Source: a virus (lineage: Duplodnaviria > Heunggongvirae > Uroviricota > Caudoviricetes). Taken from it: a stretch of 26,096 bases of DNA. A program made the translations under genes and the position numbers. The notes under the pieces were generated by a model. The model ran no database searches. It worked only from the letters and a program-made list of their open reading frames with translations, and was not told where the DNA came from. Positions 5,014 to 14,620 of the stretch are shown one piece after another; position 1 is the stretch's first letter, and the number at the start of each line of letters is the position of its first letter. The stretch lies in IMG/VR virus record IMGVR_UViG_2778261392_000003; one strand, 5' to 3'.

Positions 5014-5867
5014 GCACCATCCTGAAATGGGCGGGAAATAAAACCGCCATTATGTCCGAACTGAAAAAACACCTTCCTGCTGGCCCGCGACTGGTTGAAC
5101 CTTTCGCGGGTTCCTGTGCTGTGATGATGGCGACGGATTACCCCAGCTATCTGGTTGCTGATATTAATCCTGATTTAATCAACCTCTATAAAAAGATTGC
5201 CGCTGATTGTGAATCGTTTATATCTCGTGCCAGAGCTTTATTTGAGGAAGCAAACAGGGAGGTGGCTTATTACAACATAAGGCAGGAGTTTAACTGCTCA
5301 ACTGAAATTACTGACTTCATGAAAGCAGTATATTTCCTGTATCTCAATCGTCACGGTTACCGTGGGTTATGTCGCTATAACAAGAGCGGGCATTTCAACA
5401 TTCCCTACGGTAATTATAAAAATCCGTATTTCCCTGAAAAAGAAATTCGCGTATTTGCAGAGAAAGCCCAGCGAGCAACGTTTATCTGCGCCAGCTTTGA
5501 TGAAACGCTGGCGATGCTGCAGTTGGGGGATGTGGTGTATTGCGATCCGCCTTATGACGGTACGTTTTCCGGCTATCACACTGACGGCTTCACTGAAGAT
5601 GACCAGTATCACCTGGCATCTGTTCTTGAATATCGATCATCAGAAGGTCATCCAGTCATTGTTTCTAACAGTGACACATCCCTGATCCGTTCGCTGTATC
5701 GAAATTTCACTCACCACTACATCAAGGCAAAACGCAGCATCGGCGTGTCGGCTGGCGAGAGTAAATCTGCAACAGAAATCATTGCTGTTTCCGGGGCGCG
5801 CTGCTGGGTGGGATTTGATCCTTCGTGTGGCGTGGATAGTTCTGCTGTGTACGAGGTGCGTGTATGA
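5010..5867 (+). CDS. dam: DNA N6-adenine methyltransferase, Dam family (likely GATC-specific)
   Basis: Motif I-like EPFAGSCAV near N-terminus and catalytic DPPY (CDPPYDG); ATG 5010 with GGAGG RBS; ATGA overlap with A gene start. Confidence 0.85.
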
Positions 5868-8278
5868 GTCATGACGATATGAGCAACTCTAGCGGCTTTA
5901 ACGAGGCCGCTGCAGCATTTTCATGGAACGGCCCGAAAAAGGCCATTAACCCTTATCTGGACCCGGCGGAAGTTGCGCCGGAGTCTGCACTTTCAAACCT
6001 GATCACTCTGTACGCTGCCGATAATGAGCAGGAACAGCTGCGCCGCGATGCACTGAGTGAGCAGGTCTGGGAGCGTTATTTCTTTAATGAATCTCGTGAT
6101 CCTGTCCAGCGCGAAATGGAGCAGGATAAGCTCATTAGCCGGGCAAAGCTGGCGCATGAACAGCAGCGTTTTAACCCGGACATGGTCATTCTGGCGGACG
6201 TCAGCGCCCAGCCCACCCATATTAGCAAGCCGCTGATGCAACGTATCGAATACTTCAGCAGCCTGGGCAGGCCAAAGGCTTATTCCCGCTATTTGCGTGA
6301 GACGATTAAGCCATGTCTGGAGCGACTGGATTGTGTACGTGACAGTCAGCTGTCTGCTTCTTTCCGTTTTATGGCAAGCCATCAAGGGCTGGAGGGCCTG
6401 CTGATCCTGCCTGAAATGAGTCAGGATCAGGTGAAACGCCTGTCCACCCTGGTAGCTGCGCATATGAGCATGTGCCTTGATGCAGCTTGTGGCGATTTGT
6501 ATGCCACTGATGACGTTAAGCCAGAAGAAATCCGCAAGACATGGGAAAAGGTGGCGGCGGAAACCCTGCGTCTGGATGTCATCCCACCTGCGTTTGAGCA
6601 ACTCCGTCGGAAAAGAAACCGCCGTAAACCCGTGCCCTATGAACTCATTCCGGGTTCGCTGGCGCGTATGTTGTGCGCCGACTGGTGGTATCGGAAATTA
6701 TGGAAAATGCGTTGCGAATGGCGGGAAGAGCAGTTGCGTGCTGTCTGCCTGGTCAGCAAAAAAGCATCTCCCTATGTCAGCTATGAAGCCGTGATGCATA
6801 AACGTGAGCAGCGCCGTAAGTCGCTGGAGTTTTTCCGTTCTCATGAACTGGTGAACGAAGACGGCGAAACGCTGGACATGGAGGATGTGGTAAACGCCAG
6901 CAGCAGCAACCCTGCGCATCGCCGCAATGAGATGATGGCCTGTGTTAAAGGTCTGGAGCTTATCGCGGAAATGCGCGGTGACTGCGCCGTTTTCTACACT
7001 ATCACCTGTCCGTCACGTTTCCATTCCACGCTCAACAACGGCAGACCCAACCCGACCTGGACAAATGCGACGGTAAGACAAAGCAGCGATTATCTGGTCG
7101 GCATGTTTGCTGCATTTCGTAAGGCAATGCACAAAACCGGGTTGCGCTGGTATGGCGTGCGGGTGGCTGAGCCGCACCATGACGGTACTGTGCACTGGCA
7201 TCTCATGTGCTTCATGCGTAAAAAAGACCGCCGCGCCATCACTGCATTACTGCGTAAGTTTGCCATCCGTGTAGACCGCGAGGAGCTGGGCAACAACACG
7301 GGGCCACGCTTTAAGTCTGAGCTGATTAACCCGCGCAAAGGAACACCGACAAGCTACATCGCGAAATACATCAGTAAGAACATTGACGGGCGTGGTCTGG
7401 CTGGCGAGATCAGCAAGGAAACGGGTAAATCCCTGCGTGATAACGCCGAATACGTTAATGCCTGGGCGTCTCTGCATCGTGTTCAGCAGTTCCGCTTCTT
7501 TGGTATTCCGGGACGTCAGGCTTACCGTGAACTTCGCTTGCTGGCAGGTCAGGCGGCAAGGCAACAGGGTGACAAAAAAGCAGGTGCGCCAATACTGGAT
7601 GACCCGCGCCTTGACGCCATCCTGGCTGCTGCTGATGCTGGTTGTTTTGCCACCTACATCATGAAGCAGGGCGGCGTACTGGTTCCCCGTAAATATCACC
7701 TTATCAGAACCGCTTATGAAATCAACGAAGAGCCGACCGCCTATGGCGATCACGGCATTCGTATTTATGGCATCTGGTCACCCATTGCAGAGGGCAAGTT
7801 CTGCACTCACGCAGTGAAGTGGAAAATGGTTCGTAAGGCCGTTGACGTTCAGGAGGCGGTAGCCGACCAGGGCGCTTGCGCCCCTTGGACTCGTGGCAAT
7901 AACTGTCCCCTTGCTGAAAATTTAAACCAACAAGGGAAAGACAAATCAGCTGATGGGGACTCCAGAACGGATATTACCCGTATGAATGACAAGGAGTTGC
8001 ACGATTACCTGCACAGTATGAGCAAAAAAGAGCGCCGGGAACTGGCTGCAAGGTTACGCCAGGTGAAACCGAAACGGCGTAAAGACTACAAACAGCGAAT
8101 TACAGACCATCAGCGACAGCAGCTCGTCTATGAACTGAAGTCCAGGGGATTTGATGGCAGCGAGAAAGAAGTCGATTTGCTCCTTCGCGGCGGCAGTATT
8201 CCGTCAGGAGCAGGCCTGCGTATCTTCTATCGGAACCAGCGTCTGAAGGAAGATGATAAGTGGCGGAACCTGTATTAA
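5864..8278 (+). CDS. A: Replication initiation endonuclease (P2 gpA-like rolling-circle initiator)
   Basis: 804 aa; HWHLMCF metal-binding type motif; size and position as P2 gene A at end of early operon. Confidence 0.85.
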
Positions 8279-8371: not shown

Positions 8372-8387
8372 ACTGTAAATATAAACA
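8372..8387 (+). promoter_or_regulatory. LexA box (SOS operator) CTGTAAATATAAACAG
   Basis: Perfect CTGT-N8-ACAG with AT-rich spacer, about 45 bp upstream of the ATG at 8431 and overlapping AT-rich -10-like hexamers. Confidence 0.55.
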
Positions 8388-8430
8388 GTGGTTATATATA
8401 CAGTATTGTTGTGGTGTCATAGGAGGAAAG

Positions 8431-8619
8431 ATGCAGGACTATTTTTTGGAGTCTTTGAAGCTCCAGCGCATTGATTTTTTTCTTAAGCTTGTAGCGGCTA
8501 GTGAGTGTAGTGATGAAGAGAAGGGGCTGGCTCTGCAGTGGGTTTCTGAATTGACTGATGAACTCATGGCAAAAATCAGAAGCCACGAATACAACCGCTC
8601 AATGGATGTCATCAGCTGA
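8431..8619 (+). CDS. Small protein of SOS-controlled module (possible Tum-like antirepressor component), function unknown
   Basis: 62 aa; ATG 8431 with AGGAGGA RBS; immediately downstream of LexA box; followed 10 nt later by DinI-like gene. Confidence 0.5.
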   Translation: MQDYFLESLKLQRIDFFLKLVAASECSDEEKGLALQWVSELTDELMAKIRSHEYNRSMDVIS

Positions 8620-8629
8620 GGTGACTTTT

Positions 8630-8863
8630 ATGCGCATTGAAATAATGATCGATAAAGAGCAGAAGATTAGCCAGTCTACCCTGGACGCCCTTGAATCCGA
8701 GCTTTACCGCAATCTGCGCCCCCTGTATCCCAAAACGGTAATTCGCATTCGCAAAGGTAGCTCTAACGGTGTGGAACTAACCGGACTGCAACTGGATGAA
8801 GAAAGAAAACAAGTGATGAAAATTATGCAGAAGGTGTGGGAGGACGACAGCTGGCTGCATTAA
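8630..8863 (+). CDS. DinI-family protein
   Basis: 77 aa beginning MRIEIMIDK and ending WEDDSWLH, matching hallmark ends of E. coli DinI (MRIEV...WESADDWF); GAGGTG RBS 6 nt upstream of ATG 8630. Confidence 0.75.
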   Translation: MRIEIMIDKEQKISQSTLDALESELYRNLRPLYPKTVIRIRKGSSNGVELTGLQLDEERKQVMKIMQKVWEDDSWLH

Positions 8864-8901: not shown

Positions 8902-9061
8902 TAGTTTGGGCAATGAGTGAAATAAGGCGTAAGGTGGGCGGTTATTTTGATAAGTGATCGTCCGCTTTGTGTCAGAAGCAGAAGCAGAAGTGGGAGTGTC
9001 TGAGACTCTCTAAAAGTTGATGATTCACTTACAAAACCATTTTCCTGATGGATGCTTACAC

Positions 9062-9397
9062 TTACGAATGATCATTCTGTTTAGTCTTCATGAGAAAATC
9101 CCGAATCTTTGCCAAGTTTGAATTTTCGGGGATTGAATCCATGTACGGATCACGCTCAAACACTAATTGCTCAGATTCAACGAAAGCCTGCCACTCTACT
9201 GGGTCTAGCTCAAATCCCATTGCTGTCATATCACTTTCATCTTCCCCCTCGATCCAGTGGACTAAATAAAACAACTCATCATCAGGAGAATCATCCTCAC
9301 CATCAACAATATCAACATCGGTTACAGTGATACGTAGGGTGGGATCGATTTTTGAGACATAAATTCCTAACTGTGGTATAGGGGGAATATTGTTCAT
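9062..9397 (-). CDS. Highly acidic small protein (111 aa), function unknown; candidate DNA-mimic/anti-defence or regulator
   Basis: ATG at 9397 with perfect AAGGAG RBS; Asp/Glu-rich throughout (e.g. DVDIVDGEDDSPDDE, EGEDESDM); divergent from the ATPase/HNH operon. Confidence 0.6.
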   Translation of the reverse strand: MNNIPPIPQLGIYVSKIDPTLRITVTDVDIVDGEDDSPDDELFYLVHWIEGEDESDMTAMGFELDPVEWQAFVESEQLVFERDPYMDSIPENSNLAKIRDFLMKTKQNDHS

Positions 9398-9885
9398 GGA
9401 AACTCCTTTTATTGGTGTTTGCTATTTGAATAAAAATACGCCAAACAGAGTGTTAACTGTGAATCTGGAAAGAATCGTTGTAAGTACCCCGCTTAGGTGT
9501 CCCATTCTATTTTAGAGGTTCTCGTGCATATGGATTATGTTATCTGAAAGCTAACTTCCGCTTCCCGTTCACAGCGAACATTCATCTTTGTAAACCCGTA
9601 TGATCCGTTTTTCAAGTGGCCATTCAGATACGGATTTTCACTTCCTTGACAGTGCATGACTATGCTGCATGAAATCGCATGATCGATTGAGGATCGTCTT
9701 TGCTCAGATCCGCCAGAACTGGCGGGCTTTTGCTCATGTCATGCATGTGCATGAAAACCACTGCATAAAGCGGGCAGGCGTGGCGGGGATACGAGCGCGC
9801 GGCAGTGGATATGTTCACAAAACGGATGAAATCTAACATGTAATGTCATATTATCTAAAAGCTGTTAAGTATGACGGGAGGAATA

Positions 9886-11124
9886 ATGCGACATTTCATC
9901 GAAACTATCTTCTTTAAAAGGAACGATGAGCCTTACACATTAAATCTTGATGGTAAGAATCTAATAATATCAGGAGATAATGGCTCTGGTAAAACTAGGT
10001 TGATCGAGAATATTTATGAGTTTATAGAAAAATCGATTAATTCACATGATCCTTATACTAAGGAGCAGCTACAAAAGGAATTGAATTCCAGTCAAGAAAA
10101 CTTAAAGTATTCAAATAGAGGGGATGGTAATTATAGCTATTTAAACGAAGAAATTGAGAGACTGAAAGAAAAATTAAAAGAATTTGAGAGCTTTGATATT
10201 ACTTTTAATGATGTGGTTGATTTCAGGGTTGCTGCAAAAAAGAAAAAATCAATTATAAGATTATTTCCTGCTATTCGAGAAGCGAAAATAAAAAATGATG
10301 GTAAGATTAGCAGCCTCGATTTGTTGTTAACTGAGTATGGGAACGCACAGAGAAATAATTCTAAGATTGATGCTGGTATGTATTTTGAAAGATACATAGT
10401 TACATTGTGGAATTATGCTTTAGTCAGTAAGGGAGTGGGCAAGGATGATGACTATAAAAGAGCCTTTGATATTATTGAGAGTATTAATGATGACTTAAAA
10501 GAACTTTTTGAAGATGAAAGTATTAGAATGGATTTTGATCTCGACAAGTTGAAAATCTATCTTTTACAAAATAATAAGGAACCATTTGGACTTGATAAGT
10601 TGTCATCTGGTTTTTCATCAATTCTTTCTATTTATACTGATTTATTGATAAAAGCAGAGCTTGATAAAATCAGAAAACATGATATGACAGGGATAGTACT
10701 TATTGATGAAATTGATGCTCATCTTCATGTAACATTGCAAAAGAAAGTATTTAGTTTTTTTTCATCATCTTTTCCGCAAATACAATTTATTGTTTCTACG
10801 CATTCACCTTTCGTAATCCAATCAGTATCTGATGCGATTATATTTAATCTCTCAACATTGGATCAGATGGGTGATTTATCATTGTATTCTTACACAGCAA
10901 TTATAAAGGGATTGTTGGGTGAGGATGTATCTTCGGATAAGCTAAATGCATTAGTTAAAGAATTAATGACTTTAGTAGAAAATAATGTCTTCGACGATAG
11001 ATTTCATTCTATAATGAAAACGTTACAGAAGAGTATTGATTTTCTTGATAAAAGTTCAAAAGCAGCTTTTATGATCGCTAAGAGTAAATATTTAGATTAT
11101 AGCGAAAGGGAAGACGATGTTTAA
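9886..11124 (+). CDS. ptuA: ABC/AAA15-type ATPase, Septu PtuA-like
   Basis: Walker A GDNGSGKT, ABC signature-like LSSGF, Walker B IVLIDEIDAHLH, H-loop STHSPF; coiled-coil-like insert; start taken at ATG 9886 (GGAGG upstream), alternative ATG 9871; AT-rich by eye. Confidence 0.65.
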   Translation: MRHFIETIFFKRNDEPYTLNLDGKNLIISGDNGSGKTRLIENIYEFIEKSINSHDPYTKEQLQKELNSSQENLKYSNRGDGNYSYLNEEIERLKEKLKEFESFDITFNDVVDFRVAAKKKKSIIRLFPAIREAKIKNDGKISSLDLLLTEYGNAQRNNSKIDAGMYFERYIVTLWNYALVSKGVGKDDDYKRAFDIIESINDDLKELFEDESIRMDFDLDKLKIYLLQNNKEPFGLDKLSSGFSSILSIYTDLLIKAELDKIRKHDMTGIVLIDEIDAHLHVTLQKKVFSFFSSSFPQIQFIVSTHSPFVIQSVSDAIIFNLSTLDQMGDLSLYSYTAIIKGLLGEDVSSDKLNALVKELMTLVENNVFDDRFHSIMKTLQKSIDFLDKSSKAAFMIAKSKYLDYSEREDDV

Positions 11125-11788
11125 TGTTACTAGAAACATTCCTGCACCTCAATGCTTGTCGAGAAAAGTATATAACCATAAAACAGTTGTAAATGCTTTA
11201 GACGAAATATTTCATGGAAAATGTTATCTCTGTGAGCAAGGTAATCTTATGGATCCAGAGATAGAACATTTTATTCCACATCGTGATCTTGATGAGCTCA
11301 AATATGATTGGAACAATCTATTTTTAGCTTGCAGTCGATGCAATAGTATTAAAAGTGATTCTTTTGAAAACTTACTTGATTGCACAAAGAGTGATGTTGA
11401 TGTTTTCAGTGAGATTGTTCATCTCGCAGGGAACGCTATAACGAGTGGTGTTCAAGTATACCCAAGAAGAAAAAGACCAAGTAGAAAGGTTTTAAATACA
11501 GTCAAATTATTAGATAAGTGTTTTAACTCTTCGAGTACGGGGTTGAGGGGCATTACAAGAGCAAATCTCTCAGAGAAGTTACAAGATGAATTGTTTTACT
11601 TTACTGGTTGGAGAATGAAACTTGTCAGTGATCGAAGCACAGAACAAGAAATCCAAGAGGCCAAGAATAAGCTAAAGCCAATGTGTAATGTATCATATCC
11701 ATTTTCTGTTTTTTGGCGTTGGCATTTATTAACTGATATTCGAGTAATGAAAAAATTCCCAAGAATCAGAGATGAGCTTGGTTTTTAA
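11117..11788 (+). CDS. ptuB: HNH endonuclease, Septu PtuB-like
   Basis: 223 aa; CxxC (CYLCEQ), HFIPH, and NLFLACSRCNSIK form a classic HNH zinc-finger nuclease motif; 8-nt overlap with upstream ATPase gene (translational coupling). Confidence 0.65.
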   Translation: MFNVTRNIPAPQCLSRKVYNHKTVVNALDEIFHGKCYLCEQGNLMDPEIEHFIPHRDLDELKYDWNNLFLACSRCNSIKSDSFENLLDCTKSDVDVFSEIVHLAGNAITSGVQVYPRRKRPSRKVLNTVKLLDKCFNSSSTGLRGITRANLSEKLQDELFYFTGWRMKLVSDRSTEQEIQEAKNKLKPMCNVSYPFSVFWRWHLLTDIRVMKKFPRIRDELGF

Positions 11789-11793
11789 TTTTT

Positions 11794-11812
11794 AGGGCCG
11801 ATTCTAGGCCCT
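11794..11812. terminator. Bidirectional hairpin terminator between ptuB-like and portal genes (AGGGCC-N7-GGCCCT)
   Basis: 6-bp GC stem, 7-nt loop, flanked by T/A runs on both sides; sits in the 37-bp gap between convergent genes. Confidence 0.45.
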
Positions 11813-11825
11813 GTGTTATCATTAT

Positions 11826-12854
11826 TTAAGTTAAACTATAATCTTCAAATTGGATTATATCTTCATCTATCCAATAATTTAGTTCTTGTAACCGTTTTTG
11901 TAAAGGTATCAGTTCATTTATAACAAAAACCTTACTAGCCTTCTCCACATCCCCAAACCCCCCAACATTATTAGGCATTATCCCCATCATTTGCGGCGGC
12001 ACGCGGTGCGCAGCCATCATGTCATCACGGCTCACGTTCTTGATATTCAAAAACTCATCCTTCGCCGCGACTTCTGACAATGGGATGATCTGAAGCCCGT
12101 CCTTTTTGCCGTTAGGCGAGTACATAAACAGGTTGCGGAAGTTACCCGGTCCTTTGGCGCTTTTCATCGCGTTGCGGAGGTTGTTCACATCCTCCTGGTT
12201 CTGCGCGGCATCGGTCATGTACATGATGAAGCCAGCATGACTGCCGTTTATGTAATACTTTCGACGGAACAGCGTGGCGGACTCATTGAGCAGGGCGGAC
12301 GGAATAGCAGAAAGATAACCGGGCAGGCCGTAGATCTCCTGGTTGATATCGGGTTCCATCAGATGAAAGATGCTGCCTTTCGTGAACTGATACGGCTGGG
12401 TTGTCATACCGTATTGCACAAACCAGTAGGTATCCAGGTCTAACCCGCGTCGGGTGTATTTTGCCAGAGCAGGCTCAAGGGCGATAACTTCACCGAAGCG
12501 GTTCGTGCGTTTCTCCAGGTAGGCGTTACCAAATACCAGATAGTCCTGCACAAAACGTGAAAAAGCCTGCTGGCTGAGCAGCGGGTGGGGGATGTAGGTA
12601 CTGGTCAGAATGTTGCATTTCACCGCAATTGGTGAACTGTGATGCACGGCGGCGCGGAAGGTGCGCGCCAGTCCGTCAAAGCTTACTGGCGGCTCATACC
12701 AGCGATCTGTCTGTACGCATTCCACATAGTCCAGTAGTTCGCGGCGGTCCAGAACAGGAACGGGATCGCCAAAGCTGAATGCTTCGGCTGTAGTTTGACT
12801 TTTATGCTGGATCTGGTTCGTCGACGCAGCGCGGTTCTTCTTACTCTTTCCCAT
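11826..12854 (-). CDS. Q: Portal protein (P2 gpQ-like)
   Basis: 342 aa; synteny and size; ATGA overlap with terminase P stop. Confidence 0.9.
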   Translation of the reverse strand: MGKSKKNRAASTNQIQHKSQTTAEAFSFGDPVPVLDRRELLDYVECVQTDRWYEPPVSFDGLARTFRAAVHHSSPIAVKCNILTSTYIPHPLLSQQAFSRFVQDYLVFGNAYLEKRTNRFGEVIALEPALAKYTRRGLDLDTYWFVQYGMTTQPYQFTKGSIFHLMEPDINQEIYGLPGYLSAIPSALLNESATLFRRKYYINGSHAGFIMYMTDAAQNQEDVNNLRNAMKSAKGPGNFRNLFMYSPNGKKDGLQIIPLSEVAAKDEFLNIKNVSRDDMMAAHRVPPQMMGIMPNNVGGFGDVEKASKVFVINELIPLQKRLQELNYWIDEDIIQFEDYSLT

Positions 12855-14620
12855 CAAAAAATCTCCACAATATTACTGGTATTGGCGGACTCGCCCTGCA
12901 GTGGTTCGTTAAACAGTGCGTGCATTGTTGCCCAGGCCAGATCGGCGTGGCTGGCTTCTTCGCTGCGGCTGGCTTCATAGGTTGGGCGGTTGCCACTGGC
13001 GGTGGTTGCGCGACGGATTGCCATGAATGACTGCGCAATGTCGGTGTGCCCGGCGTCAAACTCCAGACGGCGGTGGCTGATAATGTCGTAGGCCTTGAGT
13101 ACCAGGGCGTTTTTAACGTTGGGGTTGTAGACAAACTCCCGGACGGCAGGAAAGAACGCTTTCACGTTCTCGTAAACCCCGTGACCAACGCCGGTTGAGT
13201 CGATACCGATATAAGTCACGTTGTACTGTTCGGTAAGTTTTTTGATGGCGTCAGCCTGGGCGCGGAAGTCCATCCCGCGCCACTGGTGACGCTCAAGAAT
13301 GCGGAACTTACCACCCGGCACGGCTGGCGGTGCCACCACCACGCATCCAGCGCTGTCGCCGTTTTGCGTACCTTTTGCCGGGTCATAACCGATCCACACT
13401 TCGCGCCAGTCAAACGGGCGCAGCGCCAGTGCATGAAAGTCGGTCCAGACTTCCCAACTGTCCACCATGCACGCCTGCAGCTCGCTGAGCGGAAACACGG
13501 ACGCGAGATCGTCCACAAACTCGCACATCAGCAGGTTCTGGTATTCGTCTGGGCTGTACTCCATGCGTAGCTGGTCGAGGTCGAACAGGTTACAGCCGCC
13601 GCGCACCGCATCTTCCACGGTGACTATCTGGCGGTATTGCCCGTCTGCGCACAGCAGGCCGGGGGCCAGATTGCTGTGGGACAGGTCGATGTCCACCTTA
13701 TCGGCTTTGTTGCGCCCACGGTTGAACAGCGCACCGGACCAGAACGGATAAGCACTGTGTGTCAGACTGGATGGCGTGGAAAAATAGGTTTGTCGCCATT
13801 TTTTGTGAATAGCCATACCGGAAGCCACTTTGCGCAGCTCCTGGAATTTCGGTATCCAGAAATATTCATCCAGATACAGGTTGCCGTGGTAACTCTGGGC
13901 CGTGCGGGCATTGGTGCCGAGGAAGTAAAGCGTGGCCCCGTTAGGAAGCACCATCGGATCGCCTTTCAGCTCCACCTCCACTTCTTTGGCAAAGTCGATG
14001 ATGTACTGTTTAAAGACGTGGGCCTGAGCCTTGCTGGCAGAAAGGAAAATCTGGTTACGCCCGGTCAGCAGGGCGTCAATCAGGGCTTCACGGGCAAAGT
14101 AAAAGGTCGCGCCGATCTGGCGTGACTTCAGCAGGTTGCGGATGCGGTTGGTTTTTCCGGCTTCCCACCAGTGGCGCTGGTAGTTGAACATAGAGGAATG
14201 GAAGATTTCTTCCAGCTTCTCAATCTGTTCATCGGTGAAGACATTCTTTTCCGGCTGACGACGTGGGCCTTTGTTGCGGTTGGCAACGTTAGGGTTTAAG
14301 TCGGCTTCGTTGCCGCCATTGTTAAACTTGCCGATCCGCGCGTGGCGCTCAGACTGGCGTGCCAGCAGGTCAATTTCTTTGAAATCTTTCCCTTCTTTGT
14401 GCTCCTTCATAATGAGCTGGCAGTAGCGTGCGGCGGTGGTGAGCTGCATCTGATCCAGCGGCCCATAGTCACCCCACTTGTCGCGTTTTTTCCAGCTGTG
14501 AACGGTTGCAACTTTCTCGCCCAGCATTTCAGCAATGCGGGCGACGCGGTATCCCTGAAAGTACAGCAGCATGGCCTGCCGACGGGGATCGAGATCTGCG
14601 GGTGTCAGTGTGGTGTTCAT
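12854..14620 (-). CDS. P: Terminase large (ATPase) subunit (P2 gpP-like)
   Basis: 588 aa; position divergent from O-N-M operon; characteristic size. Confidence 0.9.
   Translation of the reverse strand: MNTTLTPADLDPRRQAMLLYFQGYRVARIAEMLGEKVATVHSWKKRDKWGDYGPLDQMQLTTAARYCQLIMKEHKEGKDFKEIDLLARQSERHARIGKFNNGGNEADLNPNVANRNKGPRRQPEKNVFTDEQIEKLEEIFHSSMFNYQRHWWEAGKTNRIRNLLKSRQIGATFYFAREALIDALLTGRNQIFLSASKAQAHVFKQYIIDFAKEVEVELKGDPMVLPNGATLYFLGTNARTAQSYHGNLYLDEYFWIPKFQELRKVASGMAIHKKWRQTYFSTPSSLTHSAYPFWSGALFNRGRNKADKVDIDLSHSNLAPGLLCADGQYRQIVTVEDAVRGGCNLFDLDQLRMEYSPDEYQNLLMCEFVDDLASVFPLSELQACMVDSWEVWTDFHALALRPFDWREVWIGYDPAKGTQNGDSAGCVVVAPPAVPGGKFRILERHQWRGMDFRAQADAIKKLTEQYNVTYIGIDSTGVGHGVYENVKAFFPAVREFVYNPNVKNALVLKAYDIISHRRLEFDAGHTDIAQSFMAIRRATTASGNRPTYEASRSEEASHADLAWATMHALFNEPLQGESANTSNIVEIF

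What the first reader, a model, noticed from the sequence alone, without database searches (positions are those of the whole stretch)
9062..9397. Strongly acidic 111-aa protein divergent from the ATPase/HNH operon
The gene has a perfect AAGGAG RBS and its product is dominated by Asp/Glu runs with few basic residues. That composition is reminiscent of DNA-mimic anti-restriction proteins (Ocr/ArdA-like) or acidic antitoxin/immunity partners. It lies head-to-head with the Septu-like operon across a ~470 bp non-coding region. This suggests either a phage counter-defence gene or a regulator/partner of the neighbouring system.
Basis: inference. Interest (0 to 1): 0.55.

Follow-up and report, generated by a model that had tools for sequence, protein, structure and literature searches.

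The report
Mobile acidic gene beside prophage cos
The small, very acidic protein is a real, conserved gene (family DUF8087, function unknown) carried as its own roughly 550-base cassette beside the DNA-packaging (cos) site of a P2-like prophage; it is found next to many different defence systems and is not a partner of the neighbouring Septu operon.

Summary
Observation confirmed. Window 9062-9397 (-) encodes a 111-aa protein with AAGGAG 5 nt before the ATG, 26 D/E against 7 K/R, and dN/dS of 0.1-0.2. Interpretation only partly supported.

The window is a P2-like prophage. The "~470 bp non-coding region" holds the phage cos site (19-mer at 9777-9795), so the gene and the Septu operon (PtuA/PtuB) lie at opposite ends of the packaged DNA.

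The identical protein (WP_001059831.1, Pfam DUF8087/PF26332, phrog_17127) sits 380 nt from cos in E. coli B/BL21 and many other strains. There it faces retrons, GmrSD, an OLD-like ATPase, PD-T7-1 or a TIGR02391 protein. The same Septu cassette occurs in 5 complete E. coli genomes, and none has this gene.

A 550-bp unit (ORF plus about 175 bp upstream) is 84-88% identical in unrelated islands of Serratia, Proteus, Lonsdalea and E. coli. Relatives lie in repressor-integrase operons of Klebsiella prophages and in small integrase/GPA elements.

The AlphaFold model (pLDDT 87) is a five-strand, two-helix domain with acidic loops. It has no significant match to Ocr, ArdA or any solved structure.

My best guess, at low confidence, is a lysogen-expressed acidic binder that acts as a decoy. 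The function remains untested.

The parts
9062..9397 (-). CDS of the 111-aa acidic protein (identical to RefSeq WP_001059831.1; Pfam DUF8087/PF26332; phrog_17127)
   Evidence: ORF; composition; phrog_17127 at 2e-70; RefSeq name; PF26332 on homologues; dN/dS 0.1-0.2; AF2 model at pLDDT 87.4
9403..9408 (-). Shine-Dalgarno AAGGAG, 5 nt before the ATG
   Evidence: Read directly from the sequence; the purine-rich core (AAAGG) is invariant in six cassette copies, the AAGGAG hexamer itself being specific to the window
9398..9575 (-). Conserved 5' region that travels with the gene, so presumably its own promoter and leader. The proximal ~90 nt (9398-9487) is the best-conserved part. The only sigma-70-like candidate I could read by eye is TTCACA-N19-TATTTT (about 9456-9426), which is weak
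   Evidence: Cassette homology to L003-L006 and L008 ends at 9560-9575. Alignment A3. JC distance is 0.13-0.19 in the proximal 90 nt against dS 0.29-0.33. The consensus scan found no minus-strand promoter. No Rfam hit and no unusual RNA fold
9026..9061 (-). Conserved 3' tail of the cassette, with a weak 4-bp hairpin followed by a T-run (plus-strand 9032-9051). Homology to the other contexts ends at 9026
   Evidence: The hairpin was read from the sequence and falls below the terminator scan threshold
9651..9801 (.). P2-type cos (packaging) region of the phage backbone. It is context, not part of the cassette, and it separates the gene from the Septu operon
   Evidence: 85-91% identical in 1265 of 5426 E. 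coli genomes and in Fels-2, SopEphi, RE2010 and Klebsiella P2-like phages
9777..9795 (+). Cohesive-end 19-mer GGCGTGGCGGGGATACGAG (cosN). It starts 380 nt from the ATG of the gene
   Evidence: Pattern match, 0.01 expected by chance. Identical 19-mer in all 37 P2-like loci fetched. Published P2-group cos ends are ggcgtggcggggaaagcat and ggcgaggcgggggaacgag (PMC5261728)
9871..11124 (+). Context: PtuA ATPase of a Septu type I cassette (RefSeq starts it at 9886). A promoter-like site lies at 9826-9854 inside the cassette
   Evidence: PADLOC PtuA at 7e-122; Pfam AAA_21/AAA_15; promoter scan; GC 0.29-0.32
11117..11788 (+). Context: PtuB HNH nuclease of Septu
   Evidence: PADLOC PtuB at 2e-82; Pfam HNH at 1.3e-7
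8630..8863 (+). Context: DinI-like gene of the phage backbone, convergent with the acidic-protein gene. It is preceded by a 62-aa ORF (8431-8619) and a perfect LexA box (8373-8388)
   Evidence: Pfam DinI at 1.2e-22; RefSeq annotation of homologous loci; LexA-box pattern with 0 mismatches

Best explanation
The gene is an autonomous accessory ('moron') cassette of about 550 bp (9026-9575). It sits in the right-hand cargo slot of the cos-proximal diversity hotspot of a P2-like prophage, between the DinI-like gene and cos. It carries its own 5' control region and is inherited and exchanged independently of the Septu cassette, which occupies the other cargo slot on the far side of cos.

The product is a compact, folded domain of five strands and two helices. 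Two long acidic loops (residues 31-41 and 50-58) and a C-terminal helix decorate the fold.

Inferred mechanism: the protein is made in the lysogen and works stoichiometrically. It binds a basic, probably nucleic-acid-binding, protein and sequesters it, acting as a charge decoy. My preferred role is protection of the lysogen or prophage against an incoming competitor, that is, superinfection exclusion or immunity. I prefer this over entry-phase anti-restriction.

Shown: the anatomy, the mobility, independence from Septu, the fold class, and conserved acidity. Inferred: expression in the lysogen, the binding mechanism, and the biological role.
For: Cassette and independence:
- Window 9026-9575 is 84-88% identical in unrelated islands of Serratia, Symbiopectobacterium, Lonsdalea, Proteus and an E. 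coli ychF island.
- P2 backbone homology stops near 8980 and resumes near 9552 in prophages that lack the gene.
- The cassette's GC is 0.41, against about 0.53 for the phage core.
- The identical protein faces Eco1/St85-, Ec67- and Ec78-type retrons, other reverse transcriptases, GmrSD, an OLD-like ATPase, PD-T7-1 and a TIGR02391 protein.
- The same Septu cassette occurs in 5 genomes and never with this gene.

Defence-slot position:
- In other prophages the same DinI-cos slot holds PD-T4-7 (3.9e-144), a KAP NTPase candidate PDC-S49 (5e-160), unknown genes, or nothing.
- The locus is the published P2 hotspot (PMC9122126).

Expression in the lysogen:
- In Klebsiella aerogenes and Buttiauxella P2-like prophages the homologue lies in a tight same-strand array: HTH_3 repressor, Flk_N, DUF8087, integrase. 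Gaps are 10 and 11 nt, and DUF8087 overlaps the integrase gene by 4 nt.

Folded acidic binder:
- The AF2 model has pLDDT 87.4 and the same topology in two independent runs.
- Hydrophobic core positions are invariant.
- Acidity is conserved across the family even where the acidic loop changes length.

Distribution:
- The gene is restricted to integrated elements. It is absent from deposited phage genomes and from true plasmids.
Against: - No experiment and no homologue of known function supports any activity.
- No binding partner was identified.
- No convincing sigma-70 promoter was found upstream, so constitutive or lysogenic expression of the E. coli cassette is inferred only.
- Placement in a defence hotspot is only guilt by position. 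Rousset et al. note that such loci also carry partition and toxin genes.
- A decoy mechanism has no close precedent among known single-gene P2 exclusion proteins.
- Tight linkage to integrase or GPA genes in distant relatives could instead point to a role in the element's own life cycle.
Confidence: 0.4

Rival explanations
1. This is the first reader's main idea: an Ocr/ArdA-like DNA mimic. The acidic protein would imitate DNA and block type I restriction-modification, or another DNA-targeting defence, to protect the phage or element DNA on entry.
For: - Net charge is -19, pI is at or below 4.05, and 23% of residues are D or E. These are comparable in kind to known mimics, and the acidity is conserved across the family.
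- The gene is carried only by mobile elements.
- In P2-like prophages it is the gene nearest the right cohesive end.
- DNA mimics have many unrelated folds (general knowledge), so the lack of a fold match does not exclude this.
Against: - There is no profile match to any Pfam family, including anti-restriction families, at E 0.1 or below.
- There is no PDB sequence hit.
- There is no significant structural hit to Ocr, ArdA or any other structure.
- The gene is absent from all 50,697 deposited phage genomes and from conjugative plasmids.
- In Klebsiella and Buttiauxella prophages it sits in the repressor-integrase array, not in an early or leading region.
- The acidic loop varies in length and is missing in some relatives, so it is not a rigid phosphate-backbone mimic.
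Confidence: 0.2
2. The protein is a partner of the adjacent Septu operon, acting as regulator, antitoxin or immunity protein that controls PtuA/PtuB.
For: The only support is adjacency and divergent orientation in this window, plus the general pattern that acidic proteins can neutralise nucleases.
Against: - All 5 complete E. coli genomes with the 99.9%-identical Septu cassette lack the gene.
- None of the 214 genomes with the gene has this Septu cassette.
- The identical protein is paired with at least ten unrelated cargoes.
- The cos site and separate promoter regions lie between the two genes.
- The cassette also occurs in islands with no Septu.
- No PADLOC model matches it.
Confidence: 0.03
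3. The protein is an element-biology factor. It would act in the life cycle of P2-like or GPA-type integrative elements, for example by modulating integrase or excision, repressor or antirepressor balance, GPA-dependent replication, or helper-satellite interplay. It would not act in inter-phage conflict.
For: - The homologue overlaps the integrase gene by 4 nt and follows the repressor in Klebsiella prophages.
- In Buttiauxella it lies between an HTH_3 gene and the integrase gene.
- Three distant small elements share only integrase, DUF8087, HTH_17 and Phage_GPA, while the cargo beside them varies.
- In two of those elements DUF8087 is divergent from the HTH_17-GPA operon, which is the position a repressor usually occupies.
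Against: - Most P2-like prophages lack the gene. The cos region is found in 1265 E. coli genomes but the gene in only 214, of which about 130 carry the P2-type allele. It is therefore dispensable for the P2 life cycle.
- The 550-bp cassette also sits in ICE-like and other islands with no GPA gene in the regions examined (up to 8 kb on each side).
- An acidic protein is unlikely to bind DNA itself.
Confidence: 0.17
4. The protein is an orphan immunity protein. It would be a small acidic binder that neutralises a basic nuclease toxin (bacteriocin, CDI or T6SS effector) delivered by competing bacteria.
For: - It is small, acidic and beta-rich, like several immunity proteins.
- In Symbiopectobacterium it lies next to an Imm42 gene.
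- No cognate toxin gene is conserved beside it, as expected for an orphan.
Against: - No Pfam Imm family matches it.
- The best structural hit to an immunity protein (CdiI, 5ffp) has Foldseek probability 0.18.
- No toxin partner was seen in any context.
Confidence: 0.08

Closest known systems
Cargo genes of the P2 cos-proximal (gpA-gpQ) diversity hotspot (Rousset et al. 2022, PMC9122126), e.g. P2 tin and old, and PD-T4-7
   Same: The location is the same: between the replication gene A and the portal gene Q, next to cos. Presence varies among otherwise near-identical prophages, and GC is lower than the backbone. The very same slot holds PD-T4-7 or a KAP NTPase in other prophages. Their Table S5A already lists WP_001059831 as 'hypothetical' in such loci.
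   Different: No anti-phage activity is known. At 111 aa it is much smaller than the typical cargo and has no enzymatic or ATPase domain. It sits on the DinI side of cos, whereas the large systems seen beside this gene sit on the Q side.
Ocr (T7 gp0.3) and ArdA DNA-mimic anti-restriction proteins
   Same: It is a small, strongly acidic protein encoded by a mobile element.
   Different: There is no sequence, profile or fold similarity. This protein is mostly beta, and per general knowledge Ocr is all-alpha. The gene is absent from virulent phages and conjugative plasmids.
Pfam DUF8087 (PF26332) / PHROG 17127
   Same: It is a member. The identical RefSeq protein is named 'DUF8087 domain-containing protein', and all homologues carry PF26332.
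   Different: Nothing differs. The family has no assigned function and I found no literature on it.
DUF1653 (PDB 3be3), FeoA and other small SH3-like barrels
   Different: The scores are marginal and sequence identity is 8-13%. Those families lack the acidic loops and the C-terminal helix, and no functional inference is possible.
DinI (the neighbouring gene's family)
   Same: It is a small acidic protein encoded at the same end of P2-like genomes. Per general knowledge DinI uses an acidic helix to bind RecA, which is a precedent for acidic binder proteins in this module.
   Different: The two are unrelated in sequence. DinI is backbone and, by its LexA box, probably SOS-controlled. DUF8087 is on the opposite strand and is a variable cassette.

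Membership tests
Pfam DUF8087 (PF26332) / phrog_17127 | Full-length profile match | tested here: met
   phrog_17127 at 2e-70 over residues 1-111 of 111. PF26332 is precomputed on the window protein itself and on all homologues but one truncated fragment. RefSeq names the identical WP_001059831.1 'DUF8087 domain-containing protein'. The local Pfam copy predates the model, so one search shows no hit.
Ocr/ArdA-type DNA-mimic anti-restriction proteins | Sequence or profile similarity to a known anti-restriction family | tested here: not met
   No Pfam family at E 0.1 or below, no NCBIfam hit, no PDB sequence hit at E 10 or below.
Ocr/ArdA-type DNA-mimic anti-restriction proteins | Fold resembling a solved DNA mimic | tested here: not met
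Ocr/ArdA-type DNA-mimic anti-restriction proteins | High, conserved surface negative charge | tested here: met
   Net charge is -19. The family median is -16 and none is positive.
Ocr/ArdA-type DNA-mimic anti-restriction proteins | Inhibition of restriction in vivo or binding to an R-M enzyme | not testable with these tools
   This needs an EOP assay of unmodified phage on EcoKI+/EcoBI+ hosts with and without the protein, or a binding assay.
Septu defence system (as an accessory or third component) | Conserved co-occurrence with PtuA/PtuB | tested here: not met
   0 of 5 genomes with this Septu cassette have the gene. None of the 214 genomes with the gene has this Septu cassette. There are at least ten other partners.
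Septu defence system (as an accessory or third component) | Match to a defence-system protein model | tested here: not met
   No PADLOC family at E 0.1 or below.
P2 cos-proximal hotspot cargo (Rousset et al. 2022) | Located between gpA and gpQ, adjacent to cos, in a P2-like prophage | tested here: met
   Phage_GPA at 4.8e-127, portal and terminase. cos 19-mer lies 380 nt from the ATG. Definition from the paper.
P2 cos-proximal hotspot cargo (Rousset et al. 2022) | Presence or absence and replacement among closely related prophages | tested here: met
   The slot is empty, or holds PD-T4-7, a KAP NTPase or unknown genes, in prophages with the same flanks.
P2 cos-proximal hotspot cargo (Rousset et al. 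2022) | Anti-phage activity | not testable with these tools
   This needs cloning and a phage panel.
Type II toxin-antitoxin antitoxin | Conserved adjacent toxin gene in the same operon | tested here: not met
   There is no conserved neighbour across contexts. The 127-aa gene downstream in three closely related copies is 200 bp away, is lost in Serratia and in the window, and is not conserved elsewhere.
Moron (autonomous accessory transcription unit in a prophage) | Own promoter and terminator flanking a gene of atypical composition | tested here: inconclusive
   Atypical GC (0.41) and a 5' region that moves with the gene and is conserved support this. However, no strong sigma-70 promoter was found, and there is only a weak hairpin with a T-run.

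The most novel reading that the evidence does not exclude
DUF8087 proteins would be a new family of small acidic inhibitor or decoy proteins used by P2-like prophages and a previously undescribed class of small integrase/HTH_17/GPA elements. They would either neutralise a host or competitor DNA-binding protein, making a new anti-defence or exclusion mechanism, or act as a generic companion of the variable defence-cargo slot in these elements. A representative sits unstudied in E. coli B/BL21 next to retron-Eco1.
Probability: 0.2. Interest if true: 0.6.

Novelty: new member of a known kind. Interest (0 to 1): 0.33.

Why it matters
The practical value is mostly corrective. The acidic protein should not be annotated or tested as part of Septu. 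The "intergenic region" is the phage packaging site flanked by two independent cargo slots. Anyone cloning hotspot systems "with native flanks" from P2-like prophages, including the BL21 retron-Eco1 locus, should know that an independent, conserved gene sits 380 nt from cos.

If the protein proves to be a decoy or inhibitor, it would add a small, easily testable member to the phage conflict repertoire. The cassette is present in about 4% of complete E. coli genomes and in the standard B/BL21 laboratory strains.

The association of distant relatives with small integrase/GPA elements carrying restriction and TIR cargo also hints at an uncharacterised class of defence-carrying mobile elements.

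Tried and rejected
- Profile searches of the protein in Pfam, NCBIfam and PADLOC gave nothing. Only a PHROG of unknown function matched.
- Searching deposited phages by tblastn gave no match. Plasmids gave one hit, which is a circular P2-like record.
- The upstream region has no Rfam family and its RNA fold is unremarkable (z -1.1). I therefore dropped a riboswitch or sRNA reading.
- A LexA box upstream of the gene was not found. The only perfect box in the area (8373-8388) belongs to the orf62/DinI operon.
- The consensus scan found no promoter on the minus strand. My hand-read candidate has a 19-nt spacer and is weak.
- I considered a toxin-antitoxin reading with the 127-aa downstream gene seen in three copies. 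I rejected it: the gap is 200 bp with promoter- and terminator-like motifs, and the gene is lost in Serratia and in all P2 copies.
- I looked for a P2-type cos in the small GPA elements to test a satellite idea and found no convincing site.
- Literature searches for DUF8087, PF26332 and WP_001059831 gave no paper. The protein sequence is not in the stored part of the Rousset supplementary tables, and the 2026 NAR paper has no supplements held.
- I could not establish from the library which end of P2 DNA enters first, so I make no argument from injection order.

Full report
OBSERVATION

The ORF at 9062-9397 (minus strand) is as described. It has an ATG start, encodes 111 aa and ends in TAA. AAGGAG sits at 9403-9408, 5 nt before the start. 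The product has 15 Asp + 11 Glu against 4 Lys + 3 Arg, a net charge of -19. The computed pI is 4.05, the lower bound of the routine, so the true value is at or below that. The negative charge is concentrated in residues 26-66.

The gene is real and not a chance ORF. Pairwise dN/dS among five full-length copies is 0.10-0.20, apart from one near-identical pair at 0.42. It matches phrog_17127 end to end at 2e-70. The identical protein is listed in 19,248 blocks of the public assembly index.

WHAT THE SURROUNDINGS ARE

The window is a P2-like prophage. Its genes, in order, are:
- gpA replication endonuclease, 5864-8278 (Phage_GPA, 4.8e-127);
- a 62-aa ORF, 8431-8619;
- a DinI-like gene, 8630-8863;
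- the acidic-protein gene on the opposite strand;
- an ATPase/HNH pair;
- portal Q (11826-12857, minus strand) and terminase P (12854-14620, minus strand).

The ATPase/HNH pair is a Septu type I system: PADLOC gives PtuA at 7e-122 and PtuB at 2e-82. It is very AT-rich (GC 0.29-0.32, against about 0.53 for the phage core). The gpA-gpQ interval is the published cos-proximal diversity hotspot of P2-like phages, where P2 itself carries tin and old (PMC9122126).

THE "~470 bp NON-CODING REGION" IS THREE THINGS

1. 9398-9575 is a 5' region that always travels with the acidic-protein gene.
2. About 9552-9801 is phage backbone.
   - The stretch 9651-9801 is 85-91% identical in 1265 of 5426 complete E. 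coli genomes, and in Fels-2, SopEphi, RE2010 and Klebsiella P2-like phages.
   - It contains GGCGTGGCGGGGATACGAG at 9777-9795 (0.01 matches expected by chance).
   - This is the P2-group cohesive-end sequence. Published ends are ggcgtggcggggaaagcat and ggcgaggcgggggaacgag (PMC5261728).
   - The 19-mer is identical in all 37 P2-like loci I fetched. Wherever the acidic-protein gene is present in a P2-like locus, its ATG lies exactly 380 nt away.
3. From about 9802 the Septu cassette begins, with its own promoter-like site at 9826-9854.

So in packaged DNA the acidic-protein gene is the last gene at the right end and Septu is the first at the left end. They are neighbours only in the circular or integrated form.

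NOT A PARTNER OF SEPTU

The identical protein (RefSeq WP_001059831.1) sits in the same place in E. coli B/BL21(DE3), next to the retron-Eco1/St85-type effector and reverse transcriptase. It also sits next to:
- a TIGR02391 protein;
- a retron-Ec67-type RT;
- GmrSD of two lengths;
- PD-T7-1;
- an OLD-like AAA/TOPRIM protein;
- an Ec78-type retron with its own PtuA-like ATPase and a second effector gene, and other reverse transcriptases.

Conversely, the window's Septu cassette is found at 99.9% identity in only 5 of 5426 complete E. coli genomes. In all five the DinI-cos slot holds two different genes (288 and 217 aa) instead of the acidic-protein gene. The gene itself is in 214 genomes. The two modules therefore assort independently.

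AN AUTONOMOUS, MOBILE CASSETTE

Window 9026-9575 comprises 36 bp 3' of the stop, the ORF, and about 175 bp 5'. It is 84-88% identical in unrelated settings:
- a Serratia chromosomal locus;
- ICE-like islands of Symbiopectobacterium and Lonsdalea, marked by DUF2857;
- a Proteus island next to PD-T7-1;
- an integrase-bearing island beside ychF in 81 E. coli genomes.

In P2-like prophages that lack the gene, backbone homology stops near 8980 and resumes near 9552. That brackets the insertion.

The proximal 90 nt upstream is less diverged (JC 0.13-0.19) than synonymous sites (dS 0.29-0.33). This fits a promoter and leader under constraint. However, the consensus scan finds no minus-strand promoter, and I could read only a weak TTCACA-N19-TATTTT by eye. 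There is no Rfam family and no unusual RNA structure there.

In three closely related copies the shared segment is about 1.2 kb and includes a second gene of 127 aa, 200 bp downstream. That gene is partly deleted in Serratia and absent from all P2 copies.

THE DinI-cos SLOT IS ITSELF A CARGO SLOT

In other prophages with the same flanks the slot is one of the following:
- empty (PA45B);
- PD-T4-7 on the same strand as our gene (3.9e-144);
- a KAP NTPase, PDC-S49 (5e-160);
- pairs of unknown genes (CFT073 and the ETEC strains).

Both sides of cos are thus variable, and the acidic-protein gene is one of the alternative right-hand cargoes.

THE FAMILY

All homologues carry Pfam PF26332 (DUF8087), and RefSeq now names the protein accordingly. 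The word-indexed search gives 61 clusters, all at 50% identity or more and all from Enterobacterales. An exhaustive HMM search of 1.8 billion representatives adds only about 30 more. These are mostly 70-106-aa proteins that match residues 5-80. Some have a basic N-terminal extension (MGxAKxRG...). Acidity is conserved throughout: median net charge is -16 overall and -11.5 in the distant set, and none is positive. I found no paper that mentions the family or the accession. Rousset et al. list the accession as "hypothetical" in their locus table.

OTHER POSITIONS OF RELATIVES

- In Klebsiella aerogenes P2-like prophages the 108-aa homologue lies in a tight same-strand array: HTH_3 repressor, Flk_N protein, DUF8087, integrase, and a 243-aa protein. 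The gaps are 10, 11, -4 and 5 nt. The array is divergent from the early operon that leads to Dam and GPA.
- Buttiauxella has the same layout. That is the classical place for genes expressed in the lysogen.
- Three distant relatives sit in small elements whose only shared genes are integrase, DUF8087, HTH_17 and Phage_GPA. Variable cargo lies beside them: an SRA-HNH nuclease, a SMEK_N protein with a BglII-type R-M pair nearby, and a TIR-NLR-like protein.
- In Pantoea a lone copy lies by pgsA-uvrC, the same chromosomal neighbourhood where the Klebsiella prophage is integrated. This suggests a prophage remnant.

STRUCTURE

With the shallow alignment AlphaFold gave pLDDT 75.7. With the diverse alignment it gave pLDDT 87.4 and pTM 0.71, with the same topology: strands 10-14, 21-30, 42-49, 59-63 and 77-81, and helices 65-74 and 93-108. 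The acidic runs fall in the two long loops, 31-41 and 50-58. Those loops vary in length among relatives and are nearly absent in some.

HOW IT MOST LIKELY WORKS

Shown: it is a folded, conserved, strongly acidic small protein. It is encoded by a self-contained cassette, carried only by integrated mobile elements, placed in slots used for defence cargo or in a repressor-integrase operon, and independent of any one neighbouring system.

Inferred: it is expressed in the lysogen and acts by binding a basic, probably nucleic-acid-binding, protein as a decoy. Its role would be to protect the lysogen or prophage against a competitor. I put about 0.9 on the anatomical statements and about 0.35-0.4 on the mechanism and role.

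Rivals:
- Entry-phase anti-restriction DNA mimic (0.2). The charge fits. The fold, the distribution (no virulent phages, no conjugative plasmids) and the operon position do not favour it.
- A role in the element's own life cycle, linked to integrase or GPA (0.17). The distant contexts suggest it, but the gene is dispensable in most P2-like prophages.
- Orphan immunity protein (0.08).
- Septu partner (0.03, effectively refuted).

NOVELTY AND VERDICT

The gene is a catalogued DUF in a known hotspot. What is new here is:
- the demonstration that it is a separate mobile cassette flanking cos;
- its independence from Septu;
- its fold class;
- its link to repressor-integrase operons and to small GPA elements.

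I class it as a new member of a known kind: hotspot or moron cargo of P2-like prophages. Interest is moderate to low (0.33). It would rise if the protein proves to be a new inhibitor or decoy, which is easy to test because BL21 carries it.

Noticed in passing
window 8373-8388: A perfect LexA-box consensus, CTGTAAATATAAACAG, lies 43 nt upstream of the 62-aa ORF (8431-8619, phrog_698) and the DinI-like gene (8630-8863). This suggests an SOS-controlled operon at the right end of the phage, at the position where, from memory, phage 186 carries its LexA-controlled tum gene.
   Followed up: partly
window 9651-9801 (19-mer at 9777-9795): This is the phage cos site. Most of the conserved sequence (about 125 bp) lies to the left of the cohesive-end 19-mer and almost none to the right. 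Both flanks of cos are variable cargo slots.
   Followed up: yes
window 9802-11825: The Septu (PtuA/PtuB) cassette is rare: 5 of 5426 complete E. coli genomes carry it, all in P2-like prophages at the same place and at 99.9% identity. Its GC is about 0.30, and its end is 38 nt from the portal gene stop.
   Followed up: partly
L031 2264-3322, L032 1494-3386, L029 2521-3507, L047 791-2563: The DinI-cos interval of P2-like prophages is a second cargo slot. It holds PD-T4-7, a KAP NTPase (PDC-S49), or pairs of unknown genes. One of these, the 217-aa protein in the ETEC strains, has a weak HEPN-like PADLOC hit at 5e-5.
   Followed up: partly
L034, L037-L040: Small integrative elements from Nitrosospira and metagenomes share integrase, DUF8087, HTH_17 and a Phage_GPA replication protein. 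They carry variable defence-like cargo: an SRA-HNH nuclease, a BglII endonuclease with an MT-A70 methylase, a SMEK_N protein and a TIR-NLR-like protein. They may be an undescribed family of defence-carrying elements or satellites. I found no P2-type cos in them.
   Followed up: partly
L005 8535-8918, L006 8535-8918, L008 3916-4299: A 127-aa gene of unknown function, with a weakly hydrophobic N-terminus and no family hit, follows the DUF8087 gene by 200 bp in a shared 1.2-kb segment. The segment occurs in Lonsdalea, Proteus and an E. coli ychF island. The gene is internally deleted in Serratia and absent from all P2 copies.
   Followed up: partly
L041-L045 4343-4990 and 6336-7067: In Klebsiella aerogenes P2-like prophages the repressor-integrase array also contains a Flk_N-domain protein (215 aa) and a 243-aa protein after int. 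Both have unknown function and are presumably lysogen-expressed.
   Followed up: no
L035 5001-5309: A lone DUF8087 gene lies in a Pantoea chromosome beside pgsA-uvrC-uvrY. This is the same neighbourhood where the Klebsiella prophage carrying a homologue is integrated. It is possibly the last surviving gene of a decayed prophage.
   Followed up: no
L001 (NC_012971.2 875188-876303): In BL21(DE3) the P2-like prophage is defective: the gpA and cII-family genes are annotated as partial pseudogenes. Yet the DUF8087 gene and retron-Eco1 are intact.
   Followed up: no
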